Shown: positions 9,001 through 62,326, numbered from the stretch's first letter. The stretch: 64,000 nucleotides of DNA from Acetivibrio alkalicellulosi (GCA_008125075.1 VLTH01000002.1:1307965-1371964); one strand, 5' to 3'. Translations and numbers: made by a program. Notes: generated by a model not told the origin, from the sequence alone.

Positions 9001-12000
9001 AATTAAATGAGTATCCTCCTCCATCTAAAGGCTTTGTTATTACAAGTTCATTAAATCCAGAGTCGGATGGATTTTGAAATGAAACCCATTGTAGCTGGGA
9101 ACCACTTAAAATTGATCTGTGGCTTTGTGTTGCCCTAAAATTAACTATACTTGAGTTAGTAAATGTATTTCTAATTTGTGTAAAATTCCCCCTTACCTCT
9201 AAAATCCCCGATGTAAGATATCCATTGTGATTATAACGGCTTTGAGTTACAAATTGTCCTATGATCCTTACATAATCGTTTTCATTATTCATCCTGATAT
9301 ATCCATTACTATTTCCATATGAAAAACTTCCATCGGTCTGATAATTTTTGCTTTGTATTCTATAATCACCGTCTACAAAAAGCTGGCCTCCATTTATATT
9401 TATAGTTCCTCCTGCTTGTATAAGGTTGCCACCTACTGTAAGATTATACTTGTTTAAATTAAGAGTTCCACCATGAACATAAAGGCTACCTTTAATTTCT
9501 ATATCATTTTGCAAGGTACGGTTCTCTTCAATACTTATATCATAGGGCCAAACATGCCAGTTTACCTTAGCATTTGCCCCAAGAAATAAATATTCTCCTC
9601 CCTGCACAGGAGATAATGTTTCCATTATTTCTCCTGTCACCACAGTTTTAGAAGTAAACCTTACTCCATTTTGTGAAGTATTTTTAATTTCTAAAATATT
9701 AATAGTTGAATTTGAACTTGCAGAACTTTCAAAACTTATTCTTTGAAGTGAATCTCCATTAAGTACCACCTTGTGATTATCTGTAGATCTAAAGTTGTTT
9801 TGTGCACTGTGAATTTTTTGAATAAAGTCTCCTGCAACTTCTAATATACCTTCTTTAAGATAATCTAGATGACTATATTGGCTTTGGGTTACAAAATCTC
9901 CTTCAACCCTTACAACATCATCTTCATGTGTCATCTTTAAGTATCCATTACTGTAAATATATATTTTTTCATCATTTGTTGGAATCTCAGTCTGAATTTT
10001 ATAATCACCCTTAACAATTAGCTGACCTCCATTTATGTCCATGACACCACCAGACTGTATTAAATCTCCATGAACAGTTAAAACATATCCATCTAAGTCA
10101 AGTACTCCTGCTCCAAGATACAAATTACCATCATAATCTTGGTCACTTAAAAGCTTCCATCCTGTTAACTGTTCTTCTCCAGGGAATTTTATCTTACATC
10201 CATTATCTATAAATGTACTTGCATTTAACGCCTGATTAAATTCTATGCCTTCCTCTGAATAATTTTGTATTTCAAGTATGTTAAACCTAGATTGCGGAGT
10301 TTGTATAGTTACCGTTTGTAAACTTTCACCACTTAGTATTGTCCTGTGGCTTCCTGAAGCAATAAATTCGTCTCTATTCCATCTATGCGTTCTCTGTACA
10401 AAGTCTCCCTTCACTTCTAAAACACCAGCAGTTATCCTATTATTGTTTACAAAATATGACTGAGTAATAAAATTTCCTTCAACACATATATAACCGTCTG
10501 CCTTGTCCATAAATAAGTATGCATAATCTGCGTCTCCATAAGTTATATCACCCTGATTGTTTACATTTTCTGTCTGTATCCGGTAATCTCCTTTTACAAT
10601 AAGCTCTCCACCATTTATATTCAAAGTTCCTCTTGAATGTATTAGATTGCCTTTTATAGTCAGTTTTTTCTCGTTTAAATTAAATGTTCCGTTACGTATG
10701 TAAAAATTCCCTTCTATCGCCATATCATTTTGCATGGTGCGATTATCCTCTATACTCAAATCATATGGCCATATCTCCCAATTTACCTCTGCATTTACTC
10801 CCAGGTATAAATTCTTTCCTCCTGTAATAGGGGTTGATGTTTCTTTTATTTCTCCATTTACTACTACCTTTGATGTAAACTCTATTCCGCCTTCGGAGGT
10901 GTTTGTAATTTCAAGTATGTTTATAACTGAATTTGAACTAACAGAATTCTGAAAATTTACTTTTTGCATATTTTCTCCGCTTAATACCACCTTGTGATTA
11001 CTAGTAGGCCTAAAATTATTCTGTGCACTATGGATTCTATGGGTAAAGTCTCCTAAAACCTCCAACACACCTTCTGTAAGATAACTATTATGACTATGTT
11101 GACTGTGGGTTATAAAGTCTCCTTCTACTTTTACATATGCACCTTCTTCTGTCATTTTTAAATACCCATTACTATGTATGTAACTTTTATTTCCCTCTAC
11201 ATCTTCTATTTCTGTCTGAAGTCTGTAATCTCCTTCTATGTGAAGCTTTCCTCCATTTACATCCACTGTTCCTCCAGACTGTATTAAGTTACCATTTATT
11301 ATTAGTTGGTATCCATTTAAGTCTAGTACTCCTCCTCCAAGGTAAAGATCTCCATTATATACTTGATCACCTGTCAAACTCCATCCAACAATTTCTGAAC
11401 GAGGAAATATCACTATACACCCATTGTCTATAAAGACATTTGCATTTAGCGATTGAACAAATTCTACTCCTTCATCTGAATAATTTTTTATTTCAAGTAT
11501 GTTAAATCTGGATATTTGCGTTTCTAAACTGACTGTTTGCAAACCATTTCCACTTATTATAGTCCTGTGACTTCCAGTAGCAGTAAAATCATCTCTACCC
11601 CATCTATGTGTCAATTGGACAAAATCTCCTTTTACTTCTAGTATCCCCCCAGTTATCCTATTATTATTTGTATAACATGCCTGCATTATAAAATTTCCTT
11701 CAACACATATGTAGTCATCTACATTATCCATAATTAAATATGCATATTCTGCACCTACATAAGTTATATCTCCCTGATTATTTGTATTTTCTCTCTGGGT
11801 TCGGAAGTCTCCATTTACAATTAGTTCTCCACCATTTATGCTCAAAGTTCCTCTTGCGTGTATCAAGTTTCCTTCCACTATCAGCTTGTAGCCATTTAAA
11901 TTAAGTGATCCATTATCAATATATAAATCTCCAAAAACTGTGTCTTCAAATAAAGCAGTTGGAGAATTAATTACTGTTTTTTCCCTTGGTGTAGTAACAT

Positions 12001-12790
12001 ATAATTCATTGCTAGGCTCTGAGATACTTCCTTCTATATCTACTGCCTTTATGGTAAATATATAATGTGTATAAGGTGAAAGATTTTCTATTATACATGA
12101 TGTATACATAGCATCAACTGTTTTAATTAGAGAATTGTCTTCATAAATATTATAATAACTTATATCTTCATTATCTGAACCTTCTGTCCACTCTAATTCT
12201 ACTTTTGTACTGGTCTTTGATTTCAATACAAGATTTTGTGGTGCTAAAGGAGTTAAAACATCTTCTTCAGTTAGCATTTCATTGTCTTCTATTAGTTCTT
12301 CTGTTTCCTCTGACACCTCAGTAAAATCTTCTTCAGCTCCTGATTCTACCAACTCATCTTCAAAGTCAATCCCTTCTAAAGCATCTAATTTCATACCTTC
12401 TTGACCACTGATGTTCTCGTCTTTTAATCCATCTATTTCTATACTTTCACGATCATTTATGTGCTTATTTTCTAAATCCATGTCTTCTTCTATTATTAGT
12501 TCAAATACATCATCATAGACATATGCCTCTTTTGCTATATCCCCATGACCATCGGCGTACTCATCTTTTGTACTCCCATTGTCATTTATTACTTCTTCTA
12601 AGTTATGGTCATAGAGTTTCTCCTTTTCACCCACATATTCATGTTCATCATCATAAAATTGTTGATTTTTATTGATCATTTCTCCTACTGAAGCATCAGC
12701 AAGAACATATGAATTCTGATAAGAAAAACTCATGGTCAGACACATAACTATAACCATTATAAATGCCACGTACCTATTAAAAATACTCAC
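1..12790 (-). CDS. Giant secreted multi-domain surface protein, 5' part only (more than 4260 aa in window; the C-terminus lies beyond the window start). Order of parts: signal peptide, acidic region, FN3 domain, at least 5 right-handed beta-helix modules, then a long array of FN3/Ig-like domains.
   Basis: Uninterrupted minus-strand reading frame from a GTG at 12790 to position 1. My hand translation of both ends finds no stops. The six-frame track shows only short plus-strand ORFs here, which is consistent with a single partial ORF running off the window. An RBS-like AAAGGGGTG lies 7 nt upstream of the GTG. The N-terminus MSIFNRYVAFIMVIVMCLTMSF...VLADA looks like a signal peptide. The translated segment GDLYIDNGSLNLNGYKLIVEGNLIHARGTLSINGGELIVNG is typical of a parallel beta-helix. 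Further 3' along the minus strand, units of about 270-275 nt recur, each encoding the FN3-like signature AYD...GN.S. Confidence 0.8.
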   Translation of the reverse strand, partial: MSIFNRYVAFIMVIVMCLTMSFSYQNSYVLADASVGEMINKNQQFYDDEHEYVGEKEKLYDHNLEEVINDNGSTKDEYADGHGDIAKEAYVYDDVFELIIEEDMDLENKHINDRESIEIDGLKDENISGQEGMKLDALEGIDFEDELVESGAEEDFTEVSEETEELIEDNEMLTEEDVLTPLAPQNLVLKSKTSTKVELEWTEGSDNEDISYYNIYEDNSLIKTVDAMYTSCIIENLSPYTHYIFTIKAVDIEGSISEPSNELYVTTPREKTVINSPTALFEDTVFGDLYIDNGSLNLNGYKLIVEGNLIHARGTLSINGGELIVNGDFRTQRENTNNQGDITYVGAEYAYLIMDNVDDYICVEGNFIMQACYTNNNRITGGILEVKGDFVQLTHRWGRDDFTATGSHRTIISGNGLQTVSLETQISRFNILEIKNYSDEGVEFVQSLNANVFIDNGCIVIFPRSEIVGWSLTGDQVYNGDLYLGGGVLDLNGYQLIINGNLIQSGGTVDVNGGKLHIEGDYRLQTEIEDVEGNKSYIHSNGYLKMTEEGAYVKVEGDFITHSQHSHNSYLTEGVLEVLGDFTHRIHSAQNNFRPTSNHKVVLSGENMQKVNFQNSVSSNSVINILEITNTSEGGIEFTSKVVVNGEIKETSTPITGGKNLYLGVNAEVNWEIWPYDLSIEDNRTMQNDMAIEGNFYIRNGTFNLNEKKLTIKGNLIHSRGTLNINGGELIVKGDYRIQTENVNNQGDITYGDADYAYLFMDKADGYICVEGNFITQSYFVNNNRITAGVLEVKGDFVQRTHRWNRDEFIASGSHRTILSGESLQTVTIQTPQSRFNILEIQNYSEEGIEFNQALNASTFIDNGCKIKFPGEEQLTGWKLLSDQDYDGNLYLGAGVLDLDGYVLTVHGDLIQSGGVMDINGGQLIVKGDYKIQTEIPTNDEKIYIYSNGYLKMTHEDDVVRVEGDFVTQSQYSHLDYLKEGILEVAGDFIQKIHSAQNNFRSTDNHKVVLNGDSLQRISFESSASSNSTINILEIKNTSQNGVRFTSKTVVTGEIMETLSPVQGGEYLFLGANAKVNWHVWPYDISIEENRTLQNDIEIKGSLYVHGGTLNLNKYNLTVGGNLIQAGGTININGGQLFVDGDYRIQSKNYQTDGSFSYGNSNGYIRMNNENDYVRIIGQFVTQSRYNHNGYLTSGILEVRGNFTQIRNTFTNSSIVNFRATQSHRSILSGSQLQWVSFQNPSDSGFNELVITKPLDGGGYSFNSIPVWNTLIEDVADHQPPTVPENIRVTGKTLTTITIEWDESTDNVQVEGYDIYRNGIRVGNTRTLRYIDQGLTPNTQYTYTVRAYDPSRNFSDDSEAISATTDVDDEPPTIPRNLSISSRTDTSVSLSWSASTDNAAVAGYKVLRNDTHIADTTNTRYTDSHLQPGTYVYTVKAYDASGNVSDISSSVTYDNEPPTVPQDVEVVSVTPTSVTIQWTASSDNIGVSGYRVYRNGSFIRNITQTSFTDTGLTPDETYVYTVEAYDVAGNRSGESESITVTAAVDTEPPTIPGNLRINSKTQSSITLIWNNSTDNVRVEGYNVYRDGEKIGSSNINRYTDEDVSTDNIYTYTVTAYDKAGNESEESQPLSADIKIPGTPEEIFVTAGELKVDVVWSKVDENVHRYRIYKSANGEEYQLISQLISTSYTDTNLLEGTTYTYKVTVIDSFGVEGEGIISLPVTVLPDTTPPEIISITPADGSYIGEIVRLNVVSKDNVKVKNTEFLYSKDLTEDLWISIGVTTSGVIDWDTQHVEDGIYFVKVVVTDTSNNSSEAIVSYIIDSIPPDTPVLEASPIELGITLNWELVKIPENFDHFRIYRSIHSEELESFELIARTQSTFYTDYKAPLDSASYYKVTAVNILGSESEPSNIVNVTPGRDVTPPEIIRFTPVSGSPIRGNVEISAYARDNKGVSLYSFEFRPLDVEEWTLIGEVHNATQQEVTVIWDTLAKDSDGNYIYSDGEYQIRVVVSDEAGNYSEKVHTYTLTNDPPLPPEYLYVKAGEWQMVVSWSPVLRPDFRYYVLYRKEGRDGEWKKIVERTTSNVFIDTMKDPQIEYFYKVAVVNDLGRESESTYDYSNDEIISEHIDIRSLHQASNPLILDMMPYEFFRTNSTLELETIISDPVGVSLIYEYAYLGESPYANITGDEIWHIIGEDISPRQGETLDLEDILEIIMDGDIPQVGIGENYYISSYIWDVSHLASGTYAVRASAINKGNNETSFIKRYIVDREIPLAPSNLAVMDSHSGGELHLSWERSLSDDVEKYALYRATESGGPFILVESTKGLVYRDTGLENGVIYHYVVRAVDMAGNESENSNQVSGVPSAKSDLTVTQISTSPGLPTYEREGEITALIKNLAYAKAHGNVSFYIQDNDEWSSIGSTIVEVRSMNSTEASISWIPDKNLESPVNIKVVVDTLPGTEDIDLDNNTLYSEIRLNKAPTAYIKTSEQIYSGDRLSLDGSESSDTDGRIVSYTWDLGDGAIKSGAIITHVYQIPGQYNISLAVTDNNGAVSEDAVTVKVLDNRPDLIVNDIVWEPISPDEGDQVKITAHIGNIGNGANKQGFLTGFYINNRYLGYVRVDESIEPGESVQVPFTWIAEPGVHVVKVVANDILDNLKEIDMSNNSKSIPLTTTQVNFPDVKVVDITWTSGDKVDIDSESHFGYRAAIANIGTARAERFYVSLYINGEWVAKQHVNVLDVDQTREIMFVVRPEDGKHEVTVKVDDPDPSLLELDRDNNIMSVVTPEFRVTYPQIELSGVTWLPRETILTDGTSLTFETTVRNTGDIDIINKFDVDFVVNGERIRTITIDGLSAGEEREVWTRWLARPGSHSVSVIADPLGIVTGDKDEIRVDAKVPELRMIYPDLHISDVQWSPMSIKYGEPVTFIARVSNQSVTSIFDQFNVGLYVEGEQVARKQVSGLRGHSTAIVDLTWIPQKTGDVDVKIVVDKADRIVQQPIKEGVRRSWQESFNVADALVVQVNPDPHDQSEQFMAHVYSTTDNFIPIRAIVKKASDLSRVLGPNDGISAFYTLRRDAQIIMDGEIGYDFAEGAFKGQLPVMSLESGRYRLTVEVGDGVENITLSSNIMMVQETVATVNTDKRAYQHGETVRISGQFRFRDGSPVANERIVLNLFLEPRLPFPVPAIINGKQIMKIWHAETIRFVNTDENGYFEMDFLPTTLGAGKWNVHAFAYEMGVGNVAVTDFTVWGMKASPSNLSIVSSKNSSFSRFISVENMAHAGHSLTGVSAVLVNLTPESGVRAVMDTSSLSSVITSGGKSGVMLNFNAPLDCEDIAEYQVIFSSAQGATYTSNIKLHLRPAVPMPVTEQKGVKVGVNPGGNAVKRITLTNKGLGRMDNIRLESPKDLPWIRGVNLEKTNLAPGESTSFDILINPPEGTSLGQYQDNIVVTDGKYSTTVAVGVEVSSANRGSLSFVVSDETGERVENAEVTIVGKEPYIQVIRGQEVTYYENYYGRTNSNGIVTFDNTPLGEYDYTIRARGRNRVDGTAQVMPMRDAALVEVIMEVQPVTIEWTVVPTTIEDKYDIELELTFGTNIPRPKFGFVPPWVTVAKQINETVIVEAQVINTGLVAITDVTASVLRENLSDMGISIVGGGYIGEIPAHGSARISIMIQPGYYNLKSGINRDIGLPYNAIILQGKYVSFDSDTGLPEYPPKEVMGALPMYNPGERTAVLKIKDTEEEIEVNIPEGDLFEYDYFHPIRDRKDNSGSSGGDYQIVSLKLGQTATLERQAFDATLMVSNGYPDNSLDNLEVRVTITDEEGNDVTGQNFIIPTGITGISSLDGADSLSAGDNMTATWQLIPGEGLGGQEAEGKVYLARAIVSYYVNGRYVETQTQPEEITIYPQPKIKLNYYIPGKVQSGQPFRLGVVAENMGYGEAKNLVIDSGQLSISANQPGLLTEFNILETSFGSNTGNRFRLNLGNIEPGQRTSGYWLVRWDMYEEEEGAEPFEGEFRDFRATLTHRDYKGVQLNPLIVGISTEIIGKDNLFLDDSGDDGVLSLVDVGETGFPNYLINLNTGMRLPIYVPQSLKVEKQPDGENETTLEFSVPALEEDPNKPEMPRYQVLMLKDPLPDTPIRSVTRIVDGEEEVSLSRNNVWKNNGYIYIVDETPMSQVKPEGYLNNQERYYYPASYSIDFSMGSVIEKLEYARIYYDIDPHTLQTESKYAYYDIGVHPNEGELTRVRAAVENKGTSVESGVVEFFATRLTSRGQKEVEIKIG
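9150..11950 (-). repeat. Tandem intragenic repeat of alternating A/B modules, each about 600 bp (a super-repeat of about 1.2 kb, at least 2.5 copies). These encode the beta-helix modules of the giant protein.
   Basis: Near-identical stretches recur at about 9190, 9830, 10400, 11045 and 11620. For example, 11617-11700 resembles 10396-10480, and 11041-11130 resembles 9826-9915. A-type and B-type copies alternate. Confidence 0.75.
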
Positions 12791-12861
12791 AAATACACCC
12801 CTTTTTTTACCCACATAAAAATTAAACTCTGTTATTATTATTTAAGTAAGAATGGAAGATT

Positions 12862-12990
12862 GAATATATACTATTCTTCTCAAAAAGTTCTTTTTACTAA
12901 ACTTTTATACATTAAGTCTTATAGCTTAAGTTTCATAAGACTCTTTTTGAGAAAATGTAGTTCCTCTGTTTATTGCATCGAACTTACTAA
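12862..12990 (-). repeat. R4-c: a diverged copy of the roughly 120-bp R4 repeat in reverse orientation. It carries an inserted AAGTCTT...AAGACT hairpin and sits 70-200 bp upstream of the giant gene.
   Basis: 12856-12880 is identical to the reverse complement of the R4 end (tatatactattcttctcaaaaagtt). The internal block tagttcctctgtttat is conserved. Overall identity to the reverse complement of R4-a is about 70%, and there is an insertion of about 35 bp. Confidence 0.55.
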
Positions 12991-13353
12991 CTTGATTTGA
13001 GCTTACGCTGAGAAATGTATATGAGTTCATCAAATAATTAAATACTCTACTACGTAATTTCAAAACGGCTTAACAGCTTATGCAGGATATTAAATAATTT
13101 TTATTTAATTAACATTATGTATAATTATATAATTAACCACCTCTAAAATCAACTTATATTGTTTAAGAATTTAAGAAAGGTGTATTTAATATATGTGAAG
13201 AAAAATATTCCAGAAACTTAAGTTTCCCAGTCTAGAGCCAGTAAATACTCCTGGAGGCGGAGCAAGTTAGCCTTTAACATAAAAAAGTGTTTAAGTAACT
13301 TTTTGAGTTGACAAAGGGACGAAGGTGTTAACTATCGTCCCTTTGTTAAAATT

Positions 13354-13419
13354 CTTGGAACAAAGTGAAAGACTTAAAATCGAAGGGGCTCGATGCCCCG
13401 TAAATATTTCAGACATTCC
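13354..13419 (+). repeat. R1-A element (two hairpins ending in GGGGCTCGATGCCCC) fused to a right-end fragment of the R2 element (gtaaatatttcagacattcc). It probably also acts as the terminator of the binding-lipoprotein gene.
   Basis: The sequence cttggaacaaagtgaaagacttaaaatcgaaggggctcgatgcccc is shared with copies at 25633, 53585 and 48803 (the last in reverse). The final 20 nt match the right inverted repeat of R2 copies at 18162-18181 and 62275-62294. Confidence 0.7.
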
Positions 13420-15078
13420 TTAATTAAAAGGTATATACCATTTTGAATAATCCTCATATTTATTCCATATACTTGGATTTAATTCTCCTCGTATCTTCCT
13501 ATTAAATAAAGCGGCATCGTTATAAAAGTATAACCCCAAATATGGTACATCTTGGTTTATTAATCTTCTCATATTTATAAAATATGATTTCTTCCTTGAA
13601 AAGTTATTTTCCTTTAGAATAAGATCAAGATACATGTCAACCCCTTCTCTTTCGTAACCTGCTATATTAAAACCTCCTATTTCTTTTGAAGAATACATAA
13701 AAGAAATATCGGCTACTGAAGTTATTGTACATCCAATTAAAACCATGTCGAATTTACCCGAGCTAATCCTTTGATTCATTTCATCCCACGTAACCTCATC
13801 TATTTCTATTTCTATTCCTATTTCTTTTAGCTGATTTTTTATCTCATGAGCAACTTTTATTCGAGTACTGTTATCATTGTTTACCAGTAGCTCAAGCTTT
13901 AGAGGTTTATTAGCCCAACCAATTTTCTTATGAAGCACACCCTGATTGTTTTCTTCCCATCCACTTTCTAAAATAAGTTCTCTTGCCTTATTTATATTTA
14001 CTTCTTTAGAAATGATATTGGTATCATAAATCCATGTGTCAGGTATTACTGGCATCTCTGAAGCTATAGCTTCACCTGGCATAATATTATTTATTAATTT
14101 ATCTCTGTCAACAGTATAAGCTATTGCATTTCTTATTTCACTCTCTTGTAAAATACTATTGGAAAGATTAAAGGCAATAAACTCAAACTTATTACTAGGA
14201 TATTTTTTCAGTGCAATGTCTGATCTGCCAATGTACCTTATCCAAGCTGATCTATCCATATGAATTATGTCAACCTCTTTAGATTGAAAGGCATCACCAA
14301 TTGACATATTCCTTGGAAATATTTTTATAACAATTTGAGAGATATAGGGAAGGTTAATTTCATTTTCCCCTTCTCCCTCACCTCTCCACCAATTTTCATT
14401 TTTTATAAGCTTAATATGCTTATTTGCCTCATACTCTGAAAACTTATAAGGGCCAGTTCCCACTGGTCTGTTATTCCTATCCGTTGTAAGTATCTCTTCT
14501 TCGTAAAAATAGTGTTTAGGGATAATTGGAAATGACAGAAGCTCCGGAGTAAAAGAGTTAGGACTGTTTAGTTCCACTTTAAATGTCATATTGTCAACTA
14601 CTGAAAAAGCACTTATATTTTTAAGATTGATTCTATAGTGACTATTAACAGAACTACTAAGTATTACATTAAAAGTAAACTCCACATCTTCCGATGTAAA
14701 AGGTATATTATCATGCCAGTAAACATTTTCTCTTAAATAAAAAGTCCATTGAAGACCATCATCAGAAACTTCCCAACTTCTAGCAAGTAAAGGAACTGGC
14801 TTTTGTCTTCTGTCTATCTCTACGAGACTCTCAAATATAAATTCCGAATAATCTTTAACATAGGCATTTTTTGTCAGTAAAGGATTGAGTGTATCTGGCT
14901 GGGTAGAAAAAAGATTTAACACTCCACCTTCTTCAGGTCCTCTATCTATAACATCATCTAGAATATAATTTAATGGCATATTCTCTTCATCAGGTTCTTC
15001 TTCATAAATATATAATTCACAGGATGAAATAAATATACTAAATATTATTAATATGATTATAACTATAGTTTTTTTCAA
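13420..15078 (-). CDS. ABC-transporter substrate-binding lipoprotein, family 5 (oligopeptide/dipeptide-binding, OppA/DppA-like). It is an orphan: no permease or ATPase genes lie next to it.
   Basis: 552-aa ORF. The lipoprotein signal MKKTIVIIILIIFSIFISSC ends in a lipobox cysteine. Size and sequence character fit cluster-5 solute-binding proteins. I recognise the family from the translation. Confidence 0.75.
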   Translation of the reverse strand: MKKTIVIIILIIFSIFISSCELYIYEEEPDEENMPLNYILDDVIDRGPEEGGVLNLFSTQPDTLNPLLTKNAYVKDYSEFIFESLVEIDRRQKPVPLLARSWEVSDDGLQWTFYLRENVYWHDNIPFTSEDVEFTFNVILSSSVNSHYRINLKNISAFSVVDNMTFKVELNSPNSFTPELLSFPIIPKHYFYEEEILTTDRNNRPVGTGPYKFSEYEANKHIKLIKNENWWRGEGEGENEINLPYISQIVIKIFPRNMSIGDAFQSKEVDIIHMDRSAWIRYIGRSDIALKKYPSNKFEFIAFNLSNSILQESEIRNAIAYTVDRDKLINNIMPGEAIASEMPVIPDTWIYDTNIISKEVNINKARELILESGWEENNQGVLHKKIGWANKPLKLELLVNNDNSTRIKVAHEIKNQLKEIGIEIEIDEVTWDEMNQRISSGKFDMVLIGCTITSVADISFMYSSKEIGGFNIAGYEREGVDMYLDLILKENNFSRKKSYFINMRRLINQDVPYLGLYFYNDAALFNRKIRGELNPSIWNKYEDYSKWYIPFN

Positions 15079-17277: not shown

Positions 17278-17465
17278 ATCTAAAACACCTCTTTACTATT
17301 GTATATTTTGACAACTTCTACTATTAGTTTTAAAAAATCAGTCTAATTTATTTTTCACAAGCCTATTTTAGCATTTAATTATGCATAAGTCTAATTTACA
17401 TTTAAAAACGGTGAATATTTTTCTTCGCATTTATTAAATTCACCCTAAAAAATTTAGTATTTAAA

Positions 17466-17505
17466 TAAGTGAACTCGTTTTAGCTAAAGCTAAACGAGTT
17501 CACTT
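17466..17505 (-). terminator. Perfect 14-bp-stem hairpin, aagtgaactcgttt/aaacgagttcactt. Likely a terminator or processing site downstream of the small secreted-protein gene.
   Basis: The perfect inverted repeat is seen directly. The flanking T-run is weak, so the terminator function is inferred. Confidence 0.4.
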
Positions 17506-17506
17506 G

Positions 17507-17604
17507 GGAATGCTGAAAATATAACTTCAACTACTATTTCTCTTCAGGTCTTATTTGATGCCAAATAGCCCCCATGAGGAGTGCAAGTAATATTTCAGCT
17601 AATC
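17507..17604 (+). repeat. R2-a: MITE-like palindromic element, about 98 bp, with terminal inverted repeats of about 17-25 bp (GGAATGCTGAAAATATAACTTCCAC ... GTGGAAGTAATATTTCAG).
   Basis: Terminal inverted repeats are visible. Related copies lie at 18031-18181, 53469-53556 (reversed), 62221-62294 and the fragment at 13400-13419. The internal segment GGCCTTATTTGATGCCAAATAG forms a nested hairpin. Confidence 0.8.
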
Positions 17605-17619
17605 TCTATTTAAATTATA

Positions 17620-17988: not shown

Positions 17989-18030
17989 ATACATGCCTCC
18001 TTTAAAAATTTTTTTATATTTTAATATTTA

Positions 18031-18181
18031 GGAATGCTGAAAATATAACTCCCACTACTATTTCACTACAGGCCTTATTATAAGATCAAAGTGAATACTA
18101 AAAAGGTCCTGCTCAATGCTCCGAGCTTTTGTTGGTGCTAAATAGACCCCATGAAAAGTAGAAGTAATATTTCAGACAACC
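18031..18181 (+). repeat. R2-b: a longer (151 bp) copy of the R2 MITE-like element with an internal insertion.
   Basis: Its left end ggaatgctgaaaatataactcccac and right end gaagtaatatttcagac match the R2-a and R2-c termini. Confidence 0.8.
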
Positions 18182-18546
18182 CTTAATAAAATATTGTCGT
18201 AATTTTTGTTTTGTTGTCCAAGAAAATATTGTATATTAAAATTATAATTTTGTCAAACTTTCCGCACCACTTTTAGGTAATTATAGGAATATGCTTCATT
18301 AAAGTTGTATATGATTATATATTTTTGTGAACTGGTTTAGCTAAATCTAACATCAGGGCTTCAAGTGGATACTCTACTTCATCTAAAGATTACAAGAGAA
18401 ACTCTACCTTATATAAGGTGTCTTAAAATAATATAAAAAACCCTCTTGAACAAGCTGAAATCTGCCGATAAATTATATGTATATTATTTATCTTGTTATT
18501 AAACATAACTTATCTCTTATTTCTAATAATTTAAGGAGTTGATCTA

Positions 18547-25632: not shown

Positions 25633-25696
25633 GAAGTCTTGGAACGAAAGTGAAAGACTTAAAAGCGAAGGGGCTCGATGCCCCAAGCTTTTATTT
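25633..25696 (+). repeat. R1-B element (hairpin 1 aagtctt/aagactt; hairpin 2 ggggctcgatgcccc; T-tract). Terminator-like on both strands.
   Basis: gaagtcttggaacgaaagtgaaagacttaaaagcgaaggggctcgatgccccaagcttttattt. It lies between the 3' end of the giant ATPase gene and the promoter region of the GGDEF-EAL gene. Confidence 0.7.
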
Positions 25697-48788: not shown

Positions 48789-48802
48789 GAGTATTAGAGC
48801 TT

Positions 48803-48852
48803 ATGGCATCGTGCCTTACCCATTTTAAGTCTTTCACTTGGTTCCAAAACTT
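48803..48852 (-). repeat. R1-D element in reverse orientation, immediately 3' of the P-type ATPase gene.
   Basis: The reverse complement reads gttttggaaccaagtgaaagacttaaaatgggtaaggcacgatgcc, which matches the R1 core. The second hairpin is altered. Confidence 0.6.
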
Positions 48853-48857
48853 CTAAT

Positions 48858-48890
48858 AAAAAAAAGTGGTATAAAACCACTTTTTTTTAT
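48858..48890. terminator. Bidirectional rho-independent terminator between the convergent P-type ATPase and PPK2 genes.
   Basis: The sequence aaaaaaagtggtataaaaccacttttttttat is a stem flanked by A-runs and T-runs on both sides. Confidence 0.8.
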
Positions 48891-49760: not shown

Positions 49761-50000
49761 ATTATATCCCTCCTTTTAGATGTGCTAGATAGTATTACGT
49801 TGTAAAAATTAACAGGCGCATGCATAAAAACATTAATTTCTGTTATACTTTCTACTTTATGTCAACCAGCTTTATGATCATGAATGACTTATTCTAAAAA
49901 ATATATTTAGTGCAAAGTACTAGTATATCCTTTTTTATTTGTATTATATAATTTTACCACAAAAATATTTATTTTGTTACAATTTTTTTGAAAGATTTAT

Positions 50001-50036
50001 AAAAGAGAGGGGGCAATGCCCCCTCTCTTTTATTTA
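50001..50036. terminator. Bidirectional terminator (gagagggggcaatgccccctctc) between the PPK2 start region and the xylanase 3' end.
   Basis: GC-rich 10-bp stem flanked by A-runs and T-runs on both sides. Confidence 0.75.
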
Positions 50037-52177: not shown

Positions 52178-52487
52178 TTATAATAAATTTATATATTACA
52201 CCACAAAAACATATTAACATAATATGTCATTTGCGAAGTAATTGCAAAAAATTACAGCAGAGTTGAATATTCCTTTATATTTTGAGGTTTTTAATTTACT
52301 TTCTAATCGCTTCATTTTATAATACGAAAACATCATAAATTTTAAGATGGTATTTTAAAAAATTTTTTTAATCTTTGAAATTTTTTTTGCAAATGGATTT
52401 TTACTAATTAATTTTAGTAAAGCATGAAGTGTCTACGTTCGTGTATTTTTTATTTAAATTAAATATTCAAATTCGACATAATTATAT

Positions 52488-52605
52488 CATATCGCAGCGG
52501 AAGCTGCAATCATAGTAGTTAAGTTCCGCTGCGATAAACAGAGGAACTATATCTTCTAAAAAGTTTGCTAAAAAAGCAAACTTTTTGAGAAGAATAGTAT
52601 ATATC
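52488..52605 (+). repeat. R4-a: a 118-bp repeat with two perfect hairpins (atcgcagcggaa...ttccgctgcgat and aaaaagtttgc...gcaaacttttt). It is about 97% identical to the copy at 61823-61940.
   Basis: The near-identical copy is visible directly. It sits 320-440 bp upstream of the xylanase start. Confidence 0.85.
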
Positions 52606-52673: not shown

Positions 52674-52765
52674 GTGGATATTATTTAAGTGAAGAAAAAT
52701 ATGGAAGAAAGGCTTCTAATGCGACAGGATAGGGTGAGCATCCTGCCTGACATATTTCAATTGAT
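52674..52765 (+). repeat. R3-b: a truncated copy of the R3 element (left inverted repeat plus part of the interior).
   Basis: The sequence gtggatattatttaagtgaagaaaaatatggaagaaa...taatgcgacaggatagggtgagcat parallels 25255-25345. Confidence 0.65.
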
Positions 52766-52822: not shown

Positions 52823-52951
52823 ATGGATTCTAGAATTTTTATCTATTTATTTTCTGCAATAGCTGTTTTAGGTGTTTCGTTTTTTTTAATGATCCGTTCT
52901 GCAGACAAAAAACTTAAAGAATTAAAACCAAAAGCAAAAAAAAAGCGGTAA
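52823..52951 (+). CDS. Possible small (42 aa) single-pass membrane protein.
   Basis: GGAGGTGA RBS 9 nt upstream of the ATG. Translation: MDSRIFIYLFSAIAVLGVSFFLMIRSADKKLKELKPKAKKKR, a transmembrane helix followed by a basic tail. Not in the ORF track because it is shorter than 60 aa. Confidence 0.35.
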   Translation: MDSRIFIYLFSAIAVLGVSFFLMIRSADKKLKELKPKAKKKR

Positions 52952-53263: not shown

Positions 53264-53464
53264 ATGAGTTCATCTCAACACAGCAAAAAGCTGATTACAA
53301 AATTCAATCAGATTCAGGAAGAAATTTTAAAGATAGGTTGGAACGGTATAATTCAAAAATATCATCCAGATATGAATTGTGAAAATCCTGAATCAGCAAA
53401 ATTATTTAAGATGTATAAAAGTATTTACGAAAACATGAAAAAACGTGTTTTAGTGGATAACTAA
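53264..53464 (+). CDS. Stand-alone small J-domain protein (66 aa, DnaJ-like HPD motif).
   Basis: GGGGGGAG RBS. KYHPDMN...AKLFKMYKSIYENM matches J-domain helix II, the HPD motif and helix III. No other domain is present. Confidence 0.55.
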   Translation: MSSSQHSKKLITKFNQIQEEILKIGWNGIIQKYHPDMNCENPESAKLFKMYKSIYENMKKRVLVDN

Positions 53465-53468
53465 TTAA

Positions 53469-53556
53469 GGATTAGCTGAAATATTACTTCCACTTTTCAC
53501 AGAGCCTATTTGGCATCAAATAAGGCCTGTAGTGAAAAACTATTTTCAGAAATTCT
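53469..53556 (-). repeat. R2-d: an R2 MITE-like element in reverse orientation.
   Basis: The reverse complement reads gaatttctgaaaatag...acaggccttatttgatgccaaatagg...gtggaagtaatatttcagc, which matches the R2 consensus. Confidence 0.75.
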
Positions 53557-53583
53557 AAGGAGCAACAAGCTCCTTTTTTTATT
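53557..53583 (+). terminator. Rho-independent terminator (ggagcaacaagctcc followed by 7 T) for the J-domain gene.
   Basis: Stem-loop followed by a T-run, seen directly. Confidence 0.7.
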
Positions 53584-53584
53584 A

Positions 53585-53712
53585 AAAGCCTTGGAGCGAA
53601 GTGAAAGGCTTAAAATCGATGGGCTCGATGCCCTGAGATTTTCTTAGTAAAAGCCTTGGAGCGAAGTTAAACTATAAAAAGTGTGGGGCTCAATGCCACC
53701 ACACTTCTGTTC
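53585..53712 (+). repeat. R1-C and R1-C': two tandem R1 copies. The first carries compensatory changes in hairpin 1 (aagcctt/aaggctt). The second ends in an 11-bp hairpin, gtgtggggc/gccaccacac, which serves as a terminator for the convergent nfeD gene.
   Basis: The first copy reads ccttggagcgaagtgaaaggcttaaaatcgatgggctcgatgccctg. In the second copy the element is repeated with the stem swapped. Confidence 0.7.
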
Positions 53713-58584: not shown

Positions 58585-58640
58585 CACACTTCAGAGTTCA
58601 TATTTTTTAAGTGAAGAAAAACATTCACTAAATACACCCC
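58585..58640 (+). repeat. R3-d: a fragment of the R3 left inverted repeat.
   Basis: gttcatattttttaagtgaagaaaaacattcac. Confidence 0.5.
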
Positions 58641-60632: not shown

Positions 60633-61817
60633 ATGATATCAAAAAAAATAGTTGAAAATCTTTCAAATTCCTCATGGATTCGTGCAATGTTTGAAGAAGG
60701 AGCAAAACTTCGTAAACTTCATGGAGACAATAATGTGTATGATTTCACATTGGGCAACCCCGATCCTGAGCCACCTGAAAGTGTAAAAGAATCTCTTAAA
60801 AATTTGGTTATGTCCGGTAAACCAGGTATTCATAGATATATGAGTAATGCTGGTTTTAATGATGTAAGAGAAAAAATTGCAGAAAATATTAATAATGAAA
60901 CAGGACTTATATTATCAGAAAGTCACATTATAATGACATGTGGCGCTGCTGGAGGTCTTAATGTTGTTTTGAAAACCCTTTTAAATCCTGATGAAGAAGT
61001 TATTATTTTTTCTCCATATTTTGCAGAATATAAATTTTACATTGAAAACCACAGTGGAAAAACAGTTGTAGTATCACCAGTAAAGGATACCTTTGAACCT
61101 GATATGAAGGAATTTGAAAATAGTATTAACAAAAACACAAAAGCAATAATTATTAATTCTCCTAATAATCCTTCAGGCTATATCTATAGGGAAGATACTT
61201 TAAGGAGTATTTTGAAAATTATAGAGGATAAAGAAAAACAATTCAACACCACTATTTATGTAATATCTGACGAGCCTTATAACAAGCTGATTTATGACGA
61301 TGTGAAACTTCCTAGTATTTTAAAAATTTTTAAAAATTCCTTTGTAATAAATTCATTTAGTAAATCCCTATCATTACCTGGCGAAAGAATAGGTTATATT
61401 GCAGTCAATCCTCAACTATCTGATATTGACCTTTTAATTAACTCTCTAGTTTTCTGCAATCGCATATTAGGGTATGTTAATGCCCCTGCATTATTTCAAA
61501 AAGTTATAGCTCAATCAATTGATGCAAATGTTGATGTAGAAATTTATAAAACAAGACGTGACTTATTGTATGATATTCTTACTAAAACAGGTTTTTCATG
61601 TACTAAACCTCAAGGTGCTTTCTATCTGTTTCCTAAATCGCCTATTGATGATGATGTTGAGTTTGTTAAGCACGCATTAAAGTACAATCTCCTTTTAGTA
61701 CCAGGAAAAGGATTTGGTTGTCCAGGTTATTTTAGACTGACATATTGTGTTAGTAATGAAACTATAAAAAACTCCTATTCTGCTTTTGAATCATTAGCAA
61801 AAGACTACGGACTATAA
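60633..61817 (+). CDS. Class I/II pyridoxal-phosphate-dependent aminotransferase (aspartate/aromatic aminotransferase-like).
   Basis: TAAGGAG RBS. SFSKSLSLPGERIGY carries the PLP-lysine motif. The NPSG motif is present. 394 aa. Confidence 0.85.
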   Translation: MISKKIVENLSNSSWIRAMFEEGAKLRKLHGDNNVYDFTLGNPDPEPPESVKESLKNLVMSGKPGIHRYMSNAGFNDVREKIAENINNETGLILSESHIIMTCGAAGGLNVVLKTLLNPDEEVIIFSPYFAEYKFYIENHSGKTVVVSPVKDTFEPDMKEFENSINKNTKAIIINSPNNPSGYIYREDTLRSILKIIEDKEKQFNTTIYVISDEPYNKLIYDDVKLPSILKIFKNSFVINSFSKSLSLPGERIGYIAVNPQLSDIDLLINSLVFCNRILGYVNAPALFQKVIAQSIDANVDVEIYKTRRDLLYDILTKTGFSCTKPQGAFYLFPKSPIDDDVEFVKHALKYNLLLVPGKGFGCPGYFRLTYCVSNETIKNSYSAFESLAKDYGL

Positions 61818-61822
61818 AAATG

Positions 61823-61940
61823 TCATATCGCAGCGGAAGCTGCAATCATAGTAGTTAAGTTCCGTTGCGATAAACAGAGGAACTATATCTTCTAAAAAGT
61901 TTGCTAAAAAAATCAAACTTTTTGAGAAGAATAGTATATA
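61823..61940 (+). repeat. R4-b: the second near-identical copy of the R4 double-hairpin repeat. It starts 6 bp after the aminotransferase stop and lies 390-500 bp upstream of the GH9 gene.
   Basis: About 97% identical to 52488-52605. Confidence 0.85.
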
Positions 61941-62162
61941 GTATTTGCCCCCTAAAAAAAAGAATTGTTAGCGAATACTATAATATGAGGTATGTATAAG
62001 GTGTTATTACTACTCGTTCATGGCGACTCTACTCAACCTAAAGATACTTAGAGGAACTCCAACTTAATAGAAGGTGGAGTTATAGAATAAAATATAAGAT
62101 AAAAAGTTTATAGGTAATTTTTTACCTGATGCTTAATATCAATTATCTCTTTGTGAAAGGAT

Positions 62163-62210
62163 GTATTAAGTGAATTTTTTTCTTCACTTAAAAAATATGC
62201 ACCCTTTGTG
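62163..62210 (-). repeat. R3-e: a minimal R3 element consisting almost only of the two inverted repeats (a palindrome aagtgaa...ttcactt).
   Basis: The reverse complement reads gggtgcatattttttaagtgaagaaaaaaattcacttaatac. Confidence 0.6.
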
Positions 62211-62220
62211 AAACGACATA

Positions 62221-62294
62221 GAAATGCTGAAAATATAACTTCCACAGGCCTTATCTTACACTGTAACAAGTGGAAGTAATATTTCAGACATTCC
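62221..62294 (+). repeat. R2-c: a minimal R2 MITE (25-bp terminal inverted repeats around a 24-nt loop) located 33 bp upstream of the GH9 start codon, so it is probably transcribed in the 5' UTR.
   Basis: gaaatgctgaaaatataacttccac aggccttatcttacactgtaacaa gtggaagtaatatttcagacattcc. Confidence 0.8.
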
Positions 62295-62326
62295 TTAAAT
62301 AAAAATTTTAAAGGAGCGATGTACAA

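What the first reader, a model, noticed from the sequence alone, without database searches (positions are those of the whole stretch)
52488..52605. R4: a 118-bp double-hairpin repeat found three times, each time upstream of a large secreted polysaccharide-active or surface-protein gene (xylanase, GH9 cellulase, giant protein)
Copies at 52488-52605 and 61823-61940 are about 97% identical. Each has a perfect 12-bp stem, atcgcagcggaa/ttccgctgcgat, and a second terminator-like hairpin, aaaaagtttgc/gcaaacttttt. A diverged third copy in reverse orientation (12862-12990) has the same ends and the central block tagttcctctgtttat. The near-identity of the first two implies very recent copying or gene conversion. 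All three sit 70-500 bp upstream of large secreted polysaccharide-active or surface-protein genes, two in the sense orientation. Each is accompanied by an R3-type fragment. This could be a shared cis-regulatory cassette for the polysaccharide-degradation regulon, for example an anti-sigma/sigma-I-type or carbon-responsive control, or a small structured RNA. It could also simply be a mobile element with an insertion preference for such promoters.
Basis: partly seen in the sequence, partly recalled or inferred. Interest (0 to 1): 0.6.

Follow-up and report, generated by a model that had tools for sequence, protein, structure and literature searches.

The report
Dispersed hairpin repeat, not a CAZyme switch
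The 118-bp "R4" repeat is real, but it belongs to a previously uncatalogued family of 113-155-nt hairpin-forming intergenic repeats found next to all kinds of genes in Acetivibrio-type cellulolytic clostridia, so it is an ERIC/BOX-like genomic repeat rather than a switch for polysaccharide-degradation genes.

Summary
The copies are c1 52489-52601(+), c2 61825-61938(+) and c3 12867-13016(-), which is longer than reported. The window comes from Acetivibrio (Clostridium) alkalicellulosi.

R4 is not specific to this genome. A 20-mer from its 3' end and a central 21-mer recovered about 30 copies in at least 10 other genomes or MAGs. Most are a 154-155-nt long form: hairpin H1, a linker, then an 18-bp stem P2 enclosing hairpins P3 and P4. 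c1 and c2 are a short form lacking P3. c3 is a decayed long form.

Copies in other species are 92-94% identical to c1, although the closest relative's proteins are only about 75% identical. Boundaries are sharp. There is no ORF, Rfam match, plasmid or phage match, or adjacent transposase.

Neighbouring genes elsewhere are mostly not CAZymes (Fic, PilZ, TrpE, FtsZ, ProC, Amt and others). Elements occur in both orientations and often fill the gap between a stop codon and the next start. Covariation is weak, and some copies are decayed or truncated.

The most likely reading is an ERIC/BOX-like structured intergenic repeat, usually co-transcribed with its neighbours. The likely sigma-I promoter of the GH9 gene lies just outside c2.

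This is a new member of a known kind, of modest interest.

The parts
52489..52601 (+). R4 copy c1, short form (113 nt), intact
   Evidence: Boundaries come from the multi-genome alignment. CM score 118.9 bits, E 1e-20. MFE -50.3 kcal/mol, z -10.3.
52491..52535 (+). c1 hairpin H1: 12-13-bp outer stem ATCGCAGCGGAA/TTCCGCTGCGAT plus an inner GCUGC/GUAGU stem
   Evidence: Compensatory GCGG/CCGC to GTGG/CCAC in L022-L024, and TCGCAG/CTGCGA to TCACAG/CTGTGA in L005.
52536..52546 (+). c1 single-stranded linker AAACAGAGGAA (part of the conserved block GATAAACAGAGGAACTATATCTTCT)
52547..52598 (+). c1 P2 long stem (CTATATCTTCTAAAAAG / CTTTTTGAGAAGAATAG) capped by the P4 hairpin GTTTGC..GCAAAC. The P3 hairpin of the long form is absent.
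   Evidence: P2 is paired in 95.9% of cells across 26 copies.
61825..61938 (+). R4 copy c2, short form (114 nt). It starts 7 nt after the aminotransferase stop codon (61817).
   Evidence: CM score 113 bits. MFE -42.2 kcal/mol, z -7.6.
12867..13016 (-). R4 copy c3, long form (150 nt), decayed. H1 is lost; P3 and most of P2 are retained. It lies 74 nt upstream of the giant ORF start (about 12793).
   Evidence: CM score 120.2 bits. Fold z -1.5. 80% identical to c1 and c2.
61948..61982 (+). Not part of R4: a sigma-I-type promoter motif, CCCCCTAAAAAAAA-N10-CGAATACTAT, for the GH9-CBM3 gene, 10 nt 3' of c2
   Evidence: Regex scan. The motif is conserved in syntenic L035 at 6606-6640. Consensus taken from PMC4711584. 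Function is inferred.
52481..52509 (-). Possible hybrid outward promoter at the c1 5' junction: TTGCAG (in R4), 17 nt, then TGaTATAAT (TG from the junction, -10 from the flank), pointing toward the GH11 xylanase gene
   Evidence: Read directly from the sequence. The simple scan did not list it because the -35 matches only 3 of 6. Inference only. Only about 3-4 of 23 family members have a TAnnnT hexamer at this position.

Best explanation
R4 belongs to a dispersed, non-coding, strongly self-complementary intergenic repeat family shared by Acetivibrio alkalicellulosi and related uncultured Acetivibrio/Hungateiclostridiaceae-type genomes. The family is modular. The full form is 154-155 nt: hairpin H1, an A-rich linker, then an 18-bp stem P2 that encloses hairpins P3 and P4. 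Deletion variants lack P3 (c1, c2) or P4.

Copies have been propagated into, or retained in, intergenic DNA regardless of the function of the neighbouring genes. That step is shown. The way they spread is unknown: there are no terminal inverted repeats and at best a weak TATA-type flank duplication.

The elements often fill the whole space between a stop codon and the next ribosome-binding site, and they carry no recognisable promoter or canonical terminator. Most copies are therefore probably transcribed as part of the neighbouring mRNA, more often in the sense orientation. There the -42 to -57 kcal/mol fold would act as a generic 3'-end or 5'-UTR stem-loop, working as an mRNA stabiliser, processing site or leaky bidirectional terminator. 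This is what is proposed for ERIC, BOX and REP elements and for the stem-loops of selective RNA processing and stabilisation in cellulolytic clostridia. This step is inferred.

The element is not a dedicated regulator of polysaccharide-degradation genes. The association seen in the window reflects a CAZyme-rich region with long intergenic spacers.
For: Family and boundaries:
- The 3' 20-mer gives 27 loci in genome contigs, and the central 21-mer gives 7 metagenome loci.
- Alignments show sharp ends, C|ATATCGCAG...GAATAGTATA|W, with unrelated flanks.
- The covariance model gives 29 hits scoring 70-190 bits in 37 sources, and only 3 in the window.

Modularity and decay:
- Short forms, a P4-less form, 5'-truncated relics, a diverged copy (L005 1771-1923) and a tandem or interrupted copy (L011) all occur.
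- c3 has lost H1.

Not CAZyme-specific:
- Pfam annotation of neighbours shows this.

Both orientations:
- About 13 copies are sense and 6 antisense to the 3'-side gene.

Tight packing:
- Copies start 4-36 nt after upstream stop codons (c2, L009, L023/24, L002, L022) and end 15-35 nt before start codons (L003, L008, L013, L019, L023/24, L025, L031).

No signals of its own:
- No sigma-70-like promoter or canonical terminator is found inside R4, and no sigma-I motif.
- No Rfam family matches.
- There is no match in plasmids, phages or IMG/VR.

Structure is real:
- 90% of cells are paired, against 39-50% in slid controls.
- Fold z-scores are -7.6 to -10.3.

Conservation:
- c1 is 92-94% identical to copies in other species, whereas the best non-self aminotransferase homologue is 75% identical and syntenic coding DNA is 69-73% identical.
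- An orthologous copy pair differs at 2 of 155 nt, against a local mean of 9.9 per 155-nt window.

Presence/absence:
- The syntenic site in the closest relative lacks R4 and has a normal terminator hairpin there.

Precedent for function:
- Stem-loop control of transcript stability is described in cellulolytic clostridia (PMC4423207, PMC8219983; listed, abstracts only).
Against: - No transcription data exist, so co-transcription and any RNA-level effect are inferred.
- Compensatory covariation is sparse: 8 of 48 pairs, with a covariation score reached by 13 of 500 shuffles. G.U versus A.C counts give no clear strand signal (50 vs 27, and 12 of the G.U belong to one consensus pair). Selection on an RNA fold is therefore not demonstrated.
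- The arms of P2 are conserved in sequence rather than covarying. This would fit protein recognition of DNA as well as it fits an RNA fold.
- No mobilising enzyme, terminal inverted repeats or clear target duplication was found (permutation p 0.04), so mobility is not demonstrated either.
- Most copies were ascertained through an exact 3' 20-mer. This inflates the apparent conservation of the 3' end and biases the sample toward intact copies.
- The window's own genome could not be scanned beyond 64 kb.
Confidence: 0.6

Rival explanations
1. R4 is a functional structured RNA under purifying selection. It would be either a cis-acting mRNA module with a specific partner (an RNase or an RNA-binding protein) or a multi-copy small RNA, rather than a selfish or neutral repeat.
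For: - Identity across species is 92-94%, although their proteins are at most 75% identical.
- The orthologous copy in L023/L024 is among the most conserved 155-nt segments of a 5.2-kb alignment.
- The fold is very stable on the sense strand.
- A few compensatory changes occur in H1.
- One metagenome copy (L031) keeps P2 through A-to-G changes that give G.U pairs on the sense strand.
- There is a sense-orientation bias of about 13 to 6.
Against: - No conserved promoter lies upstream, and no terminator follows.
- Many copies are decayed, truncated or interrupted.
- Downstream genes are functionally unrelated.
- Covariation is weak, and the strand test is indecisive.
- There is no Rfam match.
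- The orientation bias is not significant (binomial p about 0.17).
Confidence: 0.2
2. R4 is a non-autonomous transposable element. One option is a hairpin-dependent IS200/IS605-type derivative (a PATE, possibly omega-RNA-like). The other is a MITE whose P2 arms are the transposase-binding inverted repeats. In either case it would be mobilised in trans by an element not present in the sampled DNA.
For: - The family is multi-copy with sharp ends, and subfamilies cluster by genome (OH_CFB_143 copies share their own H1 variant).
- The syntenic site in a relative lacks the element.
- High inter-species identity is compatible with horizontal spread.
- A hairpin lies 2 nt from the 5' end, and the 5' flank is conserved (C at -1 in 18 of 23 copies, often TATAAC/TATATC).
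- Some copies have perfect flank repeats (TATAAC in L017, TATATC-type in c1).
- P2 arms are conserved in sequence rather than covarying.
- The same genome holds a bona fide MITE, R3, with TIRs and a 9-bp TSD.
Against: - The outer termini are not inverted repeats.
- Target duplication is only marginal statistically (p 0.04).
- None of the about 35 neighbouring ORFs checked is a transposase.
- No plasmid, phage or viral copies were found.
- No omega-RNA/HEARO-type Rfam hit was found.
- The three window copies do not share an orientation relative to the inferred leading strand.
Confidence: 0.15
3. R4 is a cis-regulatory cassette (an operator or promoter module, for example sigma-I/anti-sigma or carbon-responsive) dedicated to secreted polysaccharide-active and surface-protein genes.
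For: All three window copies lie within 75-390 nt of the start of such genes. A sigma-I-type motif is adjacent to c2. A few copies elsewhere neighbour GH88-, GH11- or GH5-dockerin genes and a CBM-rich giant protein.
Against: - Most copies in other genomes flank housekeeping or unrelated genes, in both orientations, often immediately after stop codons.
- R4 has no sigma-I or sigma-70 promoter match.
- The sigma-I motif of the GH9 gene is conserved in a relative that lacks R4.
- c1 is antisense to the xylanase gene, and c3 has lost its first hairpin.
Confidence: 0.05

Closest known systems
ERIC (enterobacterial repetitive intergenic consensus, IRU) elements
   Same: Both are imperfect palindromes of about 110-155 nt, confined to intergenic and probably transcribed DNA. 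Both are present in many copies and in either orientation. Both have discrete size classes caused by internal insertions or deletions at fixed points. Both are unusually conserved between species, with no known transposase, TIR or TSD (ERIC properties from my own knowledge of the literature).
   Different: There is no sequence relationship. The host clade is different (Bacillota, Acetivibrio group). R4 has two separate domains (H1 plus a branched P2/P3/P4 domain) rather than one long hairpin.
BOX elements of Streptococcus pneumoniae (boxA-boxB-boxC)
   Same: Both are modular repeats in which internal modules can be missing or duplicated. Both form stable stem-loops, lie in intergenic regions of a Gram-positive genome, and can influence neighbouring gene expression. 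The mobilisation mechanism is unclear for both (BOX properties from my own knowledge).
   Different: The sequence and module architecture differ. No tandem amplification of an internal module was seen in R4; only loss of P3 or P4 was seen.
Classical bacterial MITEs (for example Correia/NEMIS, RUP, bcr1, and the R3 element in this same window)
   Same: All are small, non-coding, multi-copy and AT-rich at their insertion sites. All can create hybrid promoters with flanking DNA, as is possibly the case at the c1 5' junction.
   Different: R4's outer ends are not inverted repeats, and target-site duplication is not clear. R3 in the same window shows what a true MITE looks like here: 40-nt TIRs and a 9-bp TSD.
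Intergenic stem-loops of selective RNA processing and stabilisation (SRPS) operons in cellulolytic clostridia (PMC4423207, PMC8219983)
   Same: Both are very stable stem-loops placed directly after a stop codon and before the next gene. This is the most plausible way R4 affects expression.
   Different: SRPS stem-loops are locus-specific sequences, not a repeated family. No processing data exist for R4.
IS200/IS605-derived PATEs and TnpB/IscB omega-RNA scaffolds
   Same: Both lack TIR and TSD, have a hairpin close to an end, have a sharply defined 3' boundary followed by variable sequence, and are about 150 nt and highly structured.
   Different: No TnpA, TnpB or IscB gene was found nearby. 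The two end hairpins are unrelated to each other. There is no Rfam hit to omega-RNA/HEARO families.

Membership tests
Classical MITE | Terminal inverted repeats at the element's outer ends | tested here: not met
   The 5' end ATATCGCAGC and the 3' end GAATAGTATA are not complementary. The only long inverted repeat is internal (the P2 arms).
Classical MITE | Target-site duplication flanking each copy | tested here: inconclusive
   Own-flank matches average 4.13 of 6, against 3.89 for mismatched flanks (permutation p 0.038). Repeats are perfect only in a few copies (L017 TATAAC, c1 TATATC-type).
Classical MITE | A cognate autonomous IS with the same ends | not testable with these tools
None was seen in 36 loci, plasmids, phages or IMG/VR.
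REP/BIME (RAYT-associated) | 20-40-nt palindromic units with a conserved GTAG head, usually in alternating-orientation clusters | tested here: not met
   The units are 113-155 nt, have no GTAG head, and are mostly solitary. Tandem copies in L011 and L020 are head-to-tail.
ERIC/BOX-like structured intergenic repeats (a functional kind, not a sequence family) | Intergenic, non-coding, about 100-150-nt self-complementary unit in many copies and both orientations | tested here: met
ERIC/BOX-like structured intergenic repeats (a functional kind, not a sequence family) | Discrete size variants produced by presence or absence of internal modules | tested here: met
   The long form is 154-155 nt. The P3-less short form is 109-114 nt (c1, c2, L013, L021, L030, L031). 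L011 is P4-less.
ERIC/BOX-like structured intergenic repeats (a functional kind, not a sequence family) | Located in transcribed regions and co-transcribed with flanking genes | not testable with these tools
   This is inferred only from packing between stop and start codons and from the lack of internal promoter or terminator signals.
IS200/IS605-type PATE / omega-RNA | Subterminal hairpins at both ends, and insertion 3' of a fixed tetra- or pentanucleotide | tested here: inconclusive
   H1 starts 2 nt from the 5' end. The -1 base is C in 18 of 23 copies, with a loose TA(T/A)AC flank. The 3' hairpin is unrelated to H1.
IS200/IS605-type PATE / omega-RNA | Associated TnpA(Y1)/TnpB/IscB gene, or an omega-RNA covariance-model match | tested here: not met
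   No such Pfam domains occur in about 35 neighbouring ORFs. There are no Rfam hits at E<=1. The rest of the host genome was not searchable.
Sigma-I-dependent promoter | C-rich/AAA -35 element, 13-14 nt spacer, CGWA -10 (PMC4711584) | tested here: not met
   The regex scan finds the motif only at 61948-61982, outside R4.
Intrinsic terminator | G+C-rich stem immediately followed by a U-tract | tested here: not met
   The simple scan finds none inside any of the three copies. The P4 stem (GUUUGC/GCAAAC) is weak, and its U-run is paired with the A-run in the predicted fold.
Known RNA family (riboswitch, leader, sRNA) | Match to an Rfam covariance model | tested here: not met
   There are 0 hits at gathering threshold in the window, and 0 hits at E<=1 in three loci carrying intact long forms.

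The most novel reading that the evidence does not exclude
R4 could define a new, selectively maintained structured nucleic-acid module of the Acetivibrio/Hungateiclostridiaceae lineage. One possibility is a cis-acting RNA domain recognised by a specific factor that sets transcript boundaries and stability between adjacent genes. The other is the substrate of a hairpin-guided transposition system that needs neither terminal inverted repeats nor target duplication. Either would explain why copies stay 92-94% identical between species whose proteins are only about 70-75% identical.
Probability: 0.2. Interest if true: 0.55.

Novelty: new member of a known kind. Interest (0 to 1): 0.3.

Why it matters
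For annotating this genome, the result removes a tempting but wrong inference. R4 is not the polysaccharide-regulon operator. The likely sigma-I promoter of the GH9 cellulase gene is the motif next to it.

More generally, the work defines a repeat family, with exact ends, modules and a covariance model, in a biotechnologically important group of cellulolytic clostridia. Such elements can terminate, stabilise or process transcripts and can create hybrid promoters, so they matter for operon prediction and strain engineering.

The unusually high inter-species conservation poses the same unresolved question as ERIC elements: is it selection, gene conversion or horizontal spread? This family could be a Gram-positive test case.

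Tried and rejected
- Rfam: gathering threshold on the window, and E<=1 on three loci with intact long forms. Nothing was found.
- BLAST of the long form against PLSDB plasmids and INPHARED phages, plus three IMG/VR pattern scans. Nothing was found.
- Sigma-70 promoter and terminator scans around all three copies. Nothing lies inside R4.
- By eye I tested the conserved 3' end (TTGAGAAGAATAGTATA) as a sigma-A promoter (spacings of 19-24 nt, or a poor -35), and as sigma-H, sigma-54, ECF, sporulation-sigma, CodY, TnrA and dif sites. None fitted. This rests on recalled consensus sequences, not a formal test.
- Small-ORF reading. An ATG-initiated 10-codon frame exists only in the AGATGAAC variants, and a 33-aa TTG frame on the reverse strand of c1 is interrupted in long forms. 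Rejected.
- RNAalifold on the mixed alignment recovered only P2 and a mis-paired H1, because of indels. I therefore specified the structure by hand.
- The suspected orthology of the 1,655-aa ORFs in L020 and in the window is a coincidence of length.
- Exact-protein look-up of the window's aminotransferase failed twice, so no more of the A. alkalicellulosi genome could be fetched.
- Orientation relative to replication. GC skew tracks gene strand, and the three copies do not share an orientation relative to the inferred leading strand.
- The R3 core was not found in any locus from other genomes, so the R3-R4 co-occurrence is local.

Full report
**1. Check of the observation**

The two near-identical copies are present. 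A 45-mer spanning the first hairpin matches only these two sites at up to 3 mismatches, and none of 100 shuffles gave a match. A repeat search independently pairs 52478-52586 with 61814-61922. It also links both copies, in inverted orientation, to 12864-12889 and 12945-12980.

Aligning 23 copies from many genomes together with their flanks fixes the true ends at C|ATATCGCAG...GAGAAGAATAGTATA|(A/T). In window coordinates this gives:
- c1 = 52489-52601(+)
- c2 = 61825-61938(+)
- c3 = 12867-13016(-)

c1 and c2 differ by two substitutions and one indel (98% identity). As RNA, c1 folds to -50.3 kcal/mol (z -10.3) and c2 to -42.2 kcal/mol (z -7.6). The reverse strands fold almost as well. c3 is only 80% identical to c1 and c2, has lost the first hairpin, and folds no better than shuffles (z -1.5).

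**2. Gene context in the window**

The window has 32.5% G+C. Its aminotransferase is 100% identical to a protein of Acetivibrio alkalicellulosi; the next best homologue is 75% identical.

The genes near each copy are as follows:
- c3 lies 74 nt upstream of a minus-strand ORF of more than 4,260 aa that runs off the window start.
- c2 begins 7 nt after the stop codon of the aminotransferase gene and ends 388 nt before a GH9-CBM3 gene.
- c1 lies in a 1.57-kb spacer between a minus-strand GH11-CBM6-CBM6-CBM2 xylanase gene and some small plus-strand ORFs. It is on the strand opposite to the xylanase gene.

**3. R4 is a multi-genome family**

A scan of one genome per species with the 3'-terminal 20-mer returned 27 loci. 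They come from Bacillota/Acetivibrio-type MAGs and from A. mesophilus. A metagenome scan with the central 21-mer returned 7 more loci.

Most copies are a long form of 154-155 nt:

ATATCGCAGYGGAAGCTGCAA..TTCCRCTGCGATAAACAGAGGAACTATATCTTCTCAAAAAGTGTCTTATAACGCTTAYGCTATAAGACTTTCAGTATAAAAGTTTGCTAAAAAAACAAACTTTTTGAGAAGAATAGTATA

The predicted fold is -56.8 kcal/mol (z -9.0). It has these parts:
- H1: a 12-13-bp stem with an inner stem.
- A single-stranded linker.
- P2: an 18-bp stem with one bulged A.
- P3 (GUCUUAUA/UAUAAGAC) and P4 (GUUUGC/GCAAAC): two hairpins enclosed by P2.

c1 and c2 belong to a short form lacking P3. This form also occurs in other genomes (L013, L021, L030, L031, L034, L005). 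L011 lacks P4 instead. The 39 extra nucleotides of c3 are simply P3.

A covariance model built from 26 copies finds 29 copies at 70-190 bits in 321 kb of collected DNA. It finds only the three known copies in the window.

**4. What the family looks like**

- *Boundaries and flanks.* The boundaries are sharp and the flanks are unrelated.
- *Subfamilies.* All OH_CFB_143 copies share their own H1 variant. However, c1 and c2 are closer to copies in other species (92-94%) than to c3 in their own genome (80%).
- *Decay.* Decayed or rearranged copies are common. They include 5'-truncated relics that keep only P4 plus the 3' arm (L001, L003, L010, L015, L026), a diverged copy whose 3' arm no longer pairs (L005 1771-1923), and head-to-tail copies in L011 that share ATA, the second of which carries an insertion of about 100 nt and is truncated.
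- *No external matches.* There is no conserved ORF, no Rfam match, no plasmid, phage or IMG/VR match, and no transposase among about 35 neighbouring ORFs.
- *Ends.* The outer ends are not inverted repeats. A permutation test for target-site duplication is marginal (p 0.04). The 5' flank loosely reads TA(T/A)AC, with C at position -1 in 18 of 23 copies.

**5. Test of the regulon hypothesis**

The genes next to copies in other genomes include a Fic protein, PilZ, anthranilate synthase, a PAS histidine kinase, a ZIP transporter, two ammonium transporters, an AI-2E transporter, an FHA-ABC transporter, ProC, PrsW, transketolase, FtsZ, xylose isomerase, MutS2, HtrA and a class-III aminotransferase. 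A minority are CAZyme-related: GH88-dockerin, GH11-CBM6-dockerin-CE4, GH5-dockerin, and a 1,655-aa CBM-rich protein.

About 13 full copies are in the sense orientation relative to the gene on their 3' side and about 6 are antisense. This is not significant (binomial p about 0.17).

Many copies begin 4-36 nt after a stop codon. Many end 15-35 nt before a ribosome-binding site and start codon. In L023/L024 the element essentially fills the intergenic spacer.

The simple scans find no sigma-70-type promoter or canonical terminator inside R4. The sigma-I consensus described for cellulosome-producing clostridia (C-rich/AAA, 13-14 nt, CGWA; PMC4711584) occurs at one intergenic place in the window, 61948-61982, which is 10 nt beyond the 3' end of c2. 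The closest available relative (71-73% nucleotide identity in the syntenic genes) has the same motif upstream of its GH9 gene. It has no R4, and it has an ordinary terminator hairpin after its aminotransferase gene.

The GH9 gene therefore probably is under sigma-I control, but R4 is not the controlling element.

**6. Structure versus selection**

On the 26-copy alignment, 90% of pair cells form standard pairs, against 39-50% when partners are slid by 1-3 columns. However, only 8 of 48 pairs show a double change, and the covariation score is reached by 13 of 500 shuffles.

There are some clear compensatory cases in H1: GCGG/CCGC to GTGG/CCAC in L022-L024, and G-C to A-U in L005. G.U cells (50, of which 12 come from one consensus pair) do not greatly exceed A.C cells (27), so neither strand is clearly favoured as the RNA. 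The P2 arms are conserved in sequence rather than covarying.

In the one orthologous pair available (L023/L024, 93.6% identical over 5.2 kb), the element has 2 differences in 155 nt, against a mean of 9.9. Only 5% of sliding windows are as low. This hints at constraint or homogenisation, but it is a single case.

One caveat applies throughout. Most copies were ascertained through an exact 3' 20-mer. The copies found through the central motif or through the model (L031, L032, L034, L005b) do vary at the 3' end.

**7. Most likely mechanism**

What is shown: R4 is a generic, modular, hairpin-forming intergenic repeat that occurs regardless of gene function and in both orientations.

What is inferred: the element carries no promoter or terminator signal and is often wedged between adjacent genes. 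It is therefore probably transcribed with its neighbours, and its very stable fold would act as a 3'-end or 5'-UTR stem-loop (transcript stabiliser, processing site or leaky bidirectional terminator). This matches what is proposed for ERIC, BOX and REP elements and what has been described for intergenic stem-loops in cellulolytic clostridia (PMC4423207, PMC8219983, seen).

For the window copies this would mean:
- c2 would be the de facto 3' stem-loop of the aminotransferase transcript.
- c3 would sit in the 5' leader of the giant gene, since promoter-like sites lie upstream of it at 13152-13124 and 13063-13034.
- c1 may by accident form a minus-strand hybrid promoter with its flank, TTGCAG-17-TGaTATAAT at 52509-52481, pointing toward the xylanase gene (read). 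A closer promoter-like site exists at 52247-52219.

How the family spreads is unknown. The rival readings, with the probabilities I assign, are:
- a selected structured RNA, 0.2
- a non-autonomous transposon of hairpin or PATE type, 0.15
- the regulon cassette, 0.05

**8. Comparison with known systems, and novelty**

R4 behaves like ERIC/BOX-type repeats but has no sequence relationship to them. It fails the defining tests for a classical MITE (no TIR, unclear TSD), REP/BIME, a sigma-I promoter, an intrinsic terminator and every Rfam family. The IS200/IS605-PATE test is inconclusive.

I found no description of this family in the searchable literature. That search was limited, so absence of a prior description is not proven.

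Verdict: a new member of a known kind. It is useful for annotation and operon prediction in Acetivibrio-group cellulolytic bacteria, and its inter-species conservation remains an open question. It is not a surprising new mechanism. Interest 0.3.

Noticed in passing
window 61948-61982 (+); L035 6606-6640: There is a sigma-I-type promoter motif, CCCCCTAAAAAAAA-N10-CGAATACTAT, immediately 3' of R4 c2 and about 345 nt upstream of the GH9-CBM3 start. It is the only intergenic match in the window. It is conserved upstream of the orthologous GH9-CBM3-dockerin gene of the closest relative.
   Followed up: partly
Fragments or copies lie at 13179-13265, 17413-17445, 52674-52710, 58593-58639 and 62159-62205. 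It is absent from the 36 loci from other genomes.
   Followed up: partly
window 13338-13399, 25647-25684, 48793-48864 (rc), 49985-50022, 53574-53632, 53639-53697: A third repeat family of about 60 nt ends in a GGGGCTCGATGCCCC hairpin. It sits just after stop codons (for example after the SBP_bac_5 gene ending at 13420). This looks like a repeated terminator module.
   Followed up: no
window 17502-17618, 18026-18195, 62216-62307, 53457-53545 (rc), 13403-13429: A fourth repeat family (…GGAATGCTGAAAATATAACT… / …GAAGTAATATTTCAGACA…CCTTAA…) has one copy directly upstream of the GH9 ribosome-binding site. The aminotransferase-GH9 spacer is thus a mosaic of four different repeats plus the sigma-I motif.
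   Followed up: no
window 52481-52509 (-): The 5' end of c1 plus its flank reads TTGCAG-17 nt-TGaTATAAT on the minus strand. This is an extended -10 promoter pointing at the GH11 xylanase gene. The -35 and the TG come from R4. Only a few family members have a good -10 at this position.
   Followed up: partly
window 2-12793 (-): A giant ORF of more than 4,260 aa runs off the window start. It has an Fn3 domain near the N-terminus and internal repeats of about 1,221 nt (9344-9643/10565-10864 and 10172-10471/11393-11692).
   Followed up: no
L011 7291-7599 (-): Two R4 copies lie head-to-tail and share the trinucleotide ATA at the junction. The second has an insertion of about 100 nt in the H1 loop and is truncated after the P2 5' arm, directly before a histidine-kinase gene.
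   Followed up: partly
L023 1011-1165 vs L024 4074-4228: This is an orthologous R4 copy in two related species (93.6% identity over 5.2 kb). It has 2 differences in 155 nt, and the whole 776-1240 stretch around it is the most conserved part of the alignment.
   Followed up: partly
L025 5187-5447 (-): In A. mesophilus, an 87-aa ORF starts 26 nt after an R4 relic. It begins MSESKKLNIGRELTDDELMEMTGG..., which resembles a double-glycine leader peptide. A GH5-dockerin gene follows 680 nt downstream.
   Followed up: no
window 52823-52951 and 53264-53464 (+): Two small ORFs lie downstream of c1. One is 42 aa, hydrophobic with a lysine-rich tail, and has a strong GGAGG ribosome-binding site. The other is 66 aa. 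They are followed by a terminator-like hairpin at 53557-53575, so c1 may be 'upstream' of these rather than of the xylanase gene.
   Followed up: no
protein P0001: The only 100% match to the window's aminotransferase is an NCBI record labelled 'UNVERIFIED_CONTAM ... [Acetivibrio alkalicellulosi]' on a 3.28-Mb contig. The species' published draft genome is given as 5.3 Mb (PMC6780208). The exact protein was not on record in the contig index.
   Followed up: no
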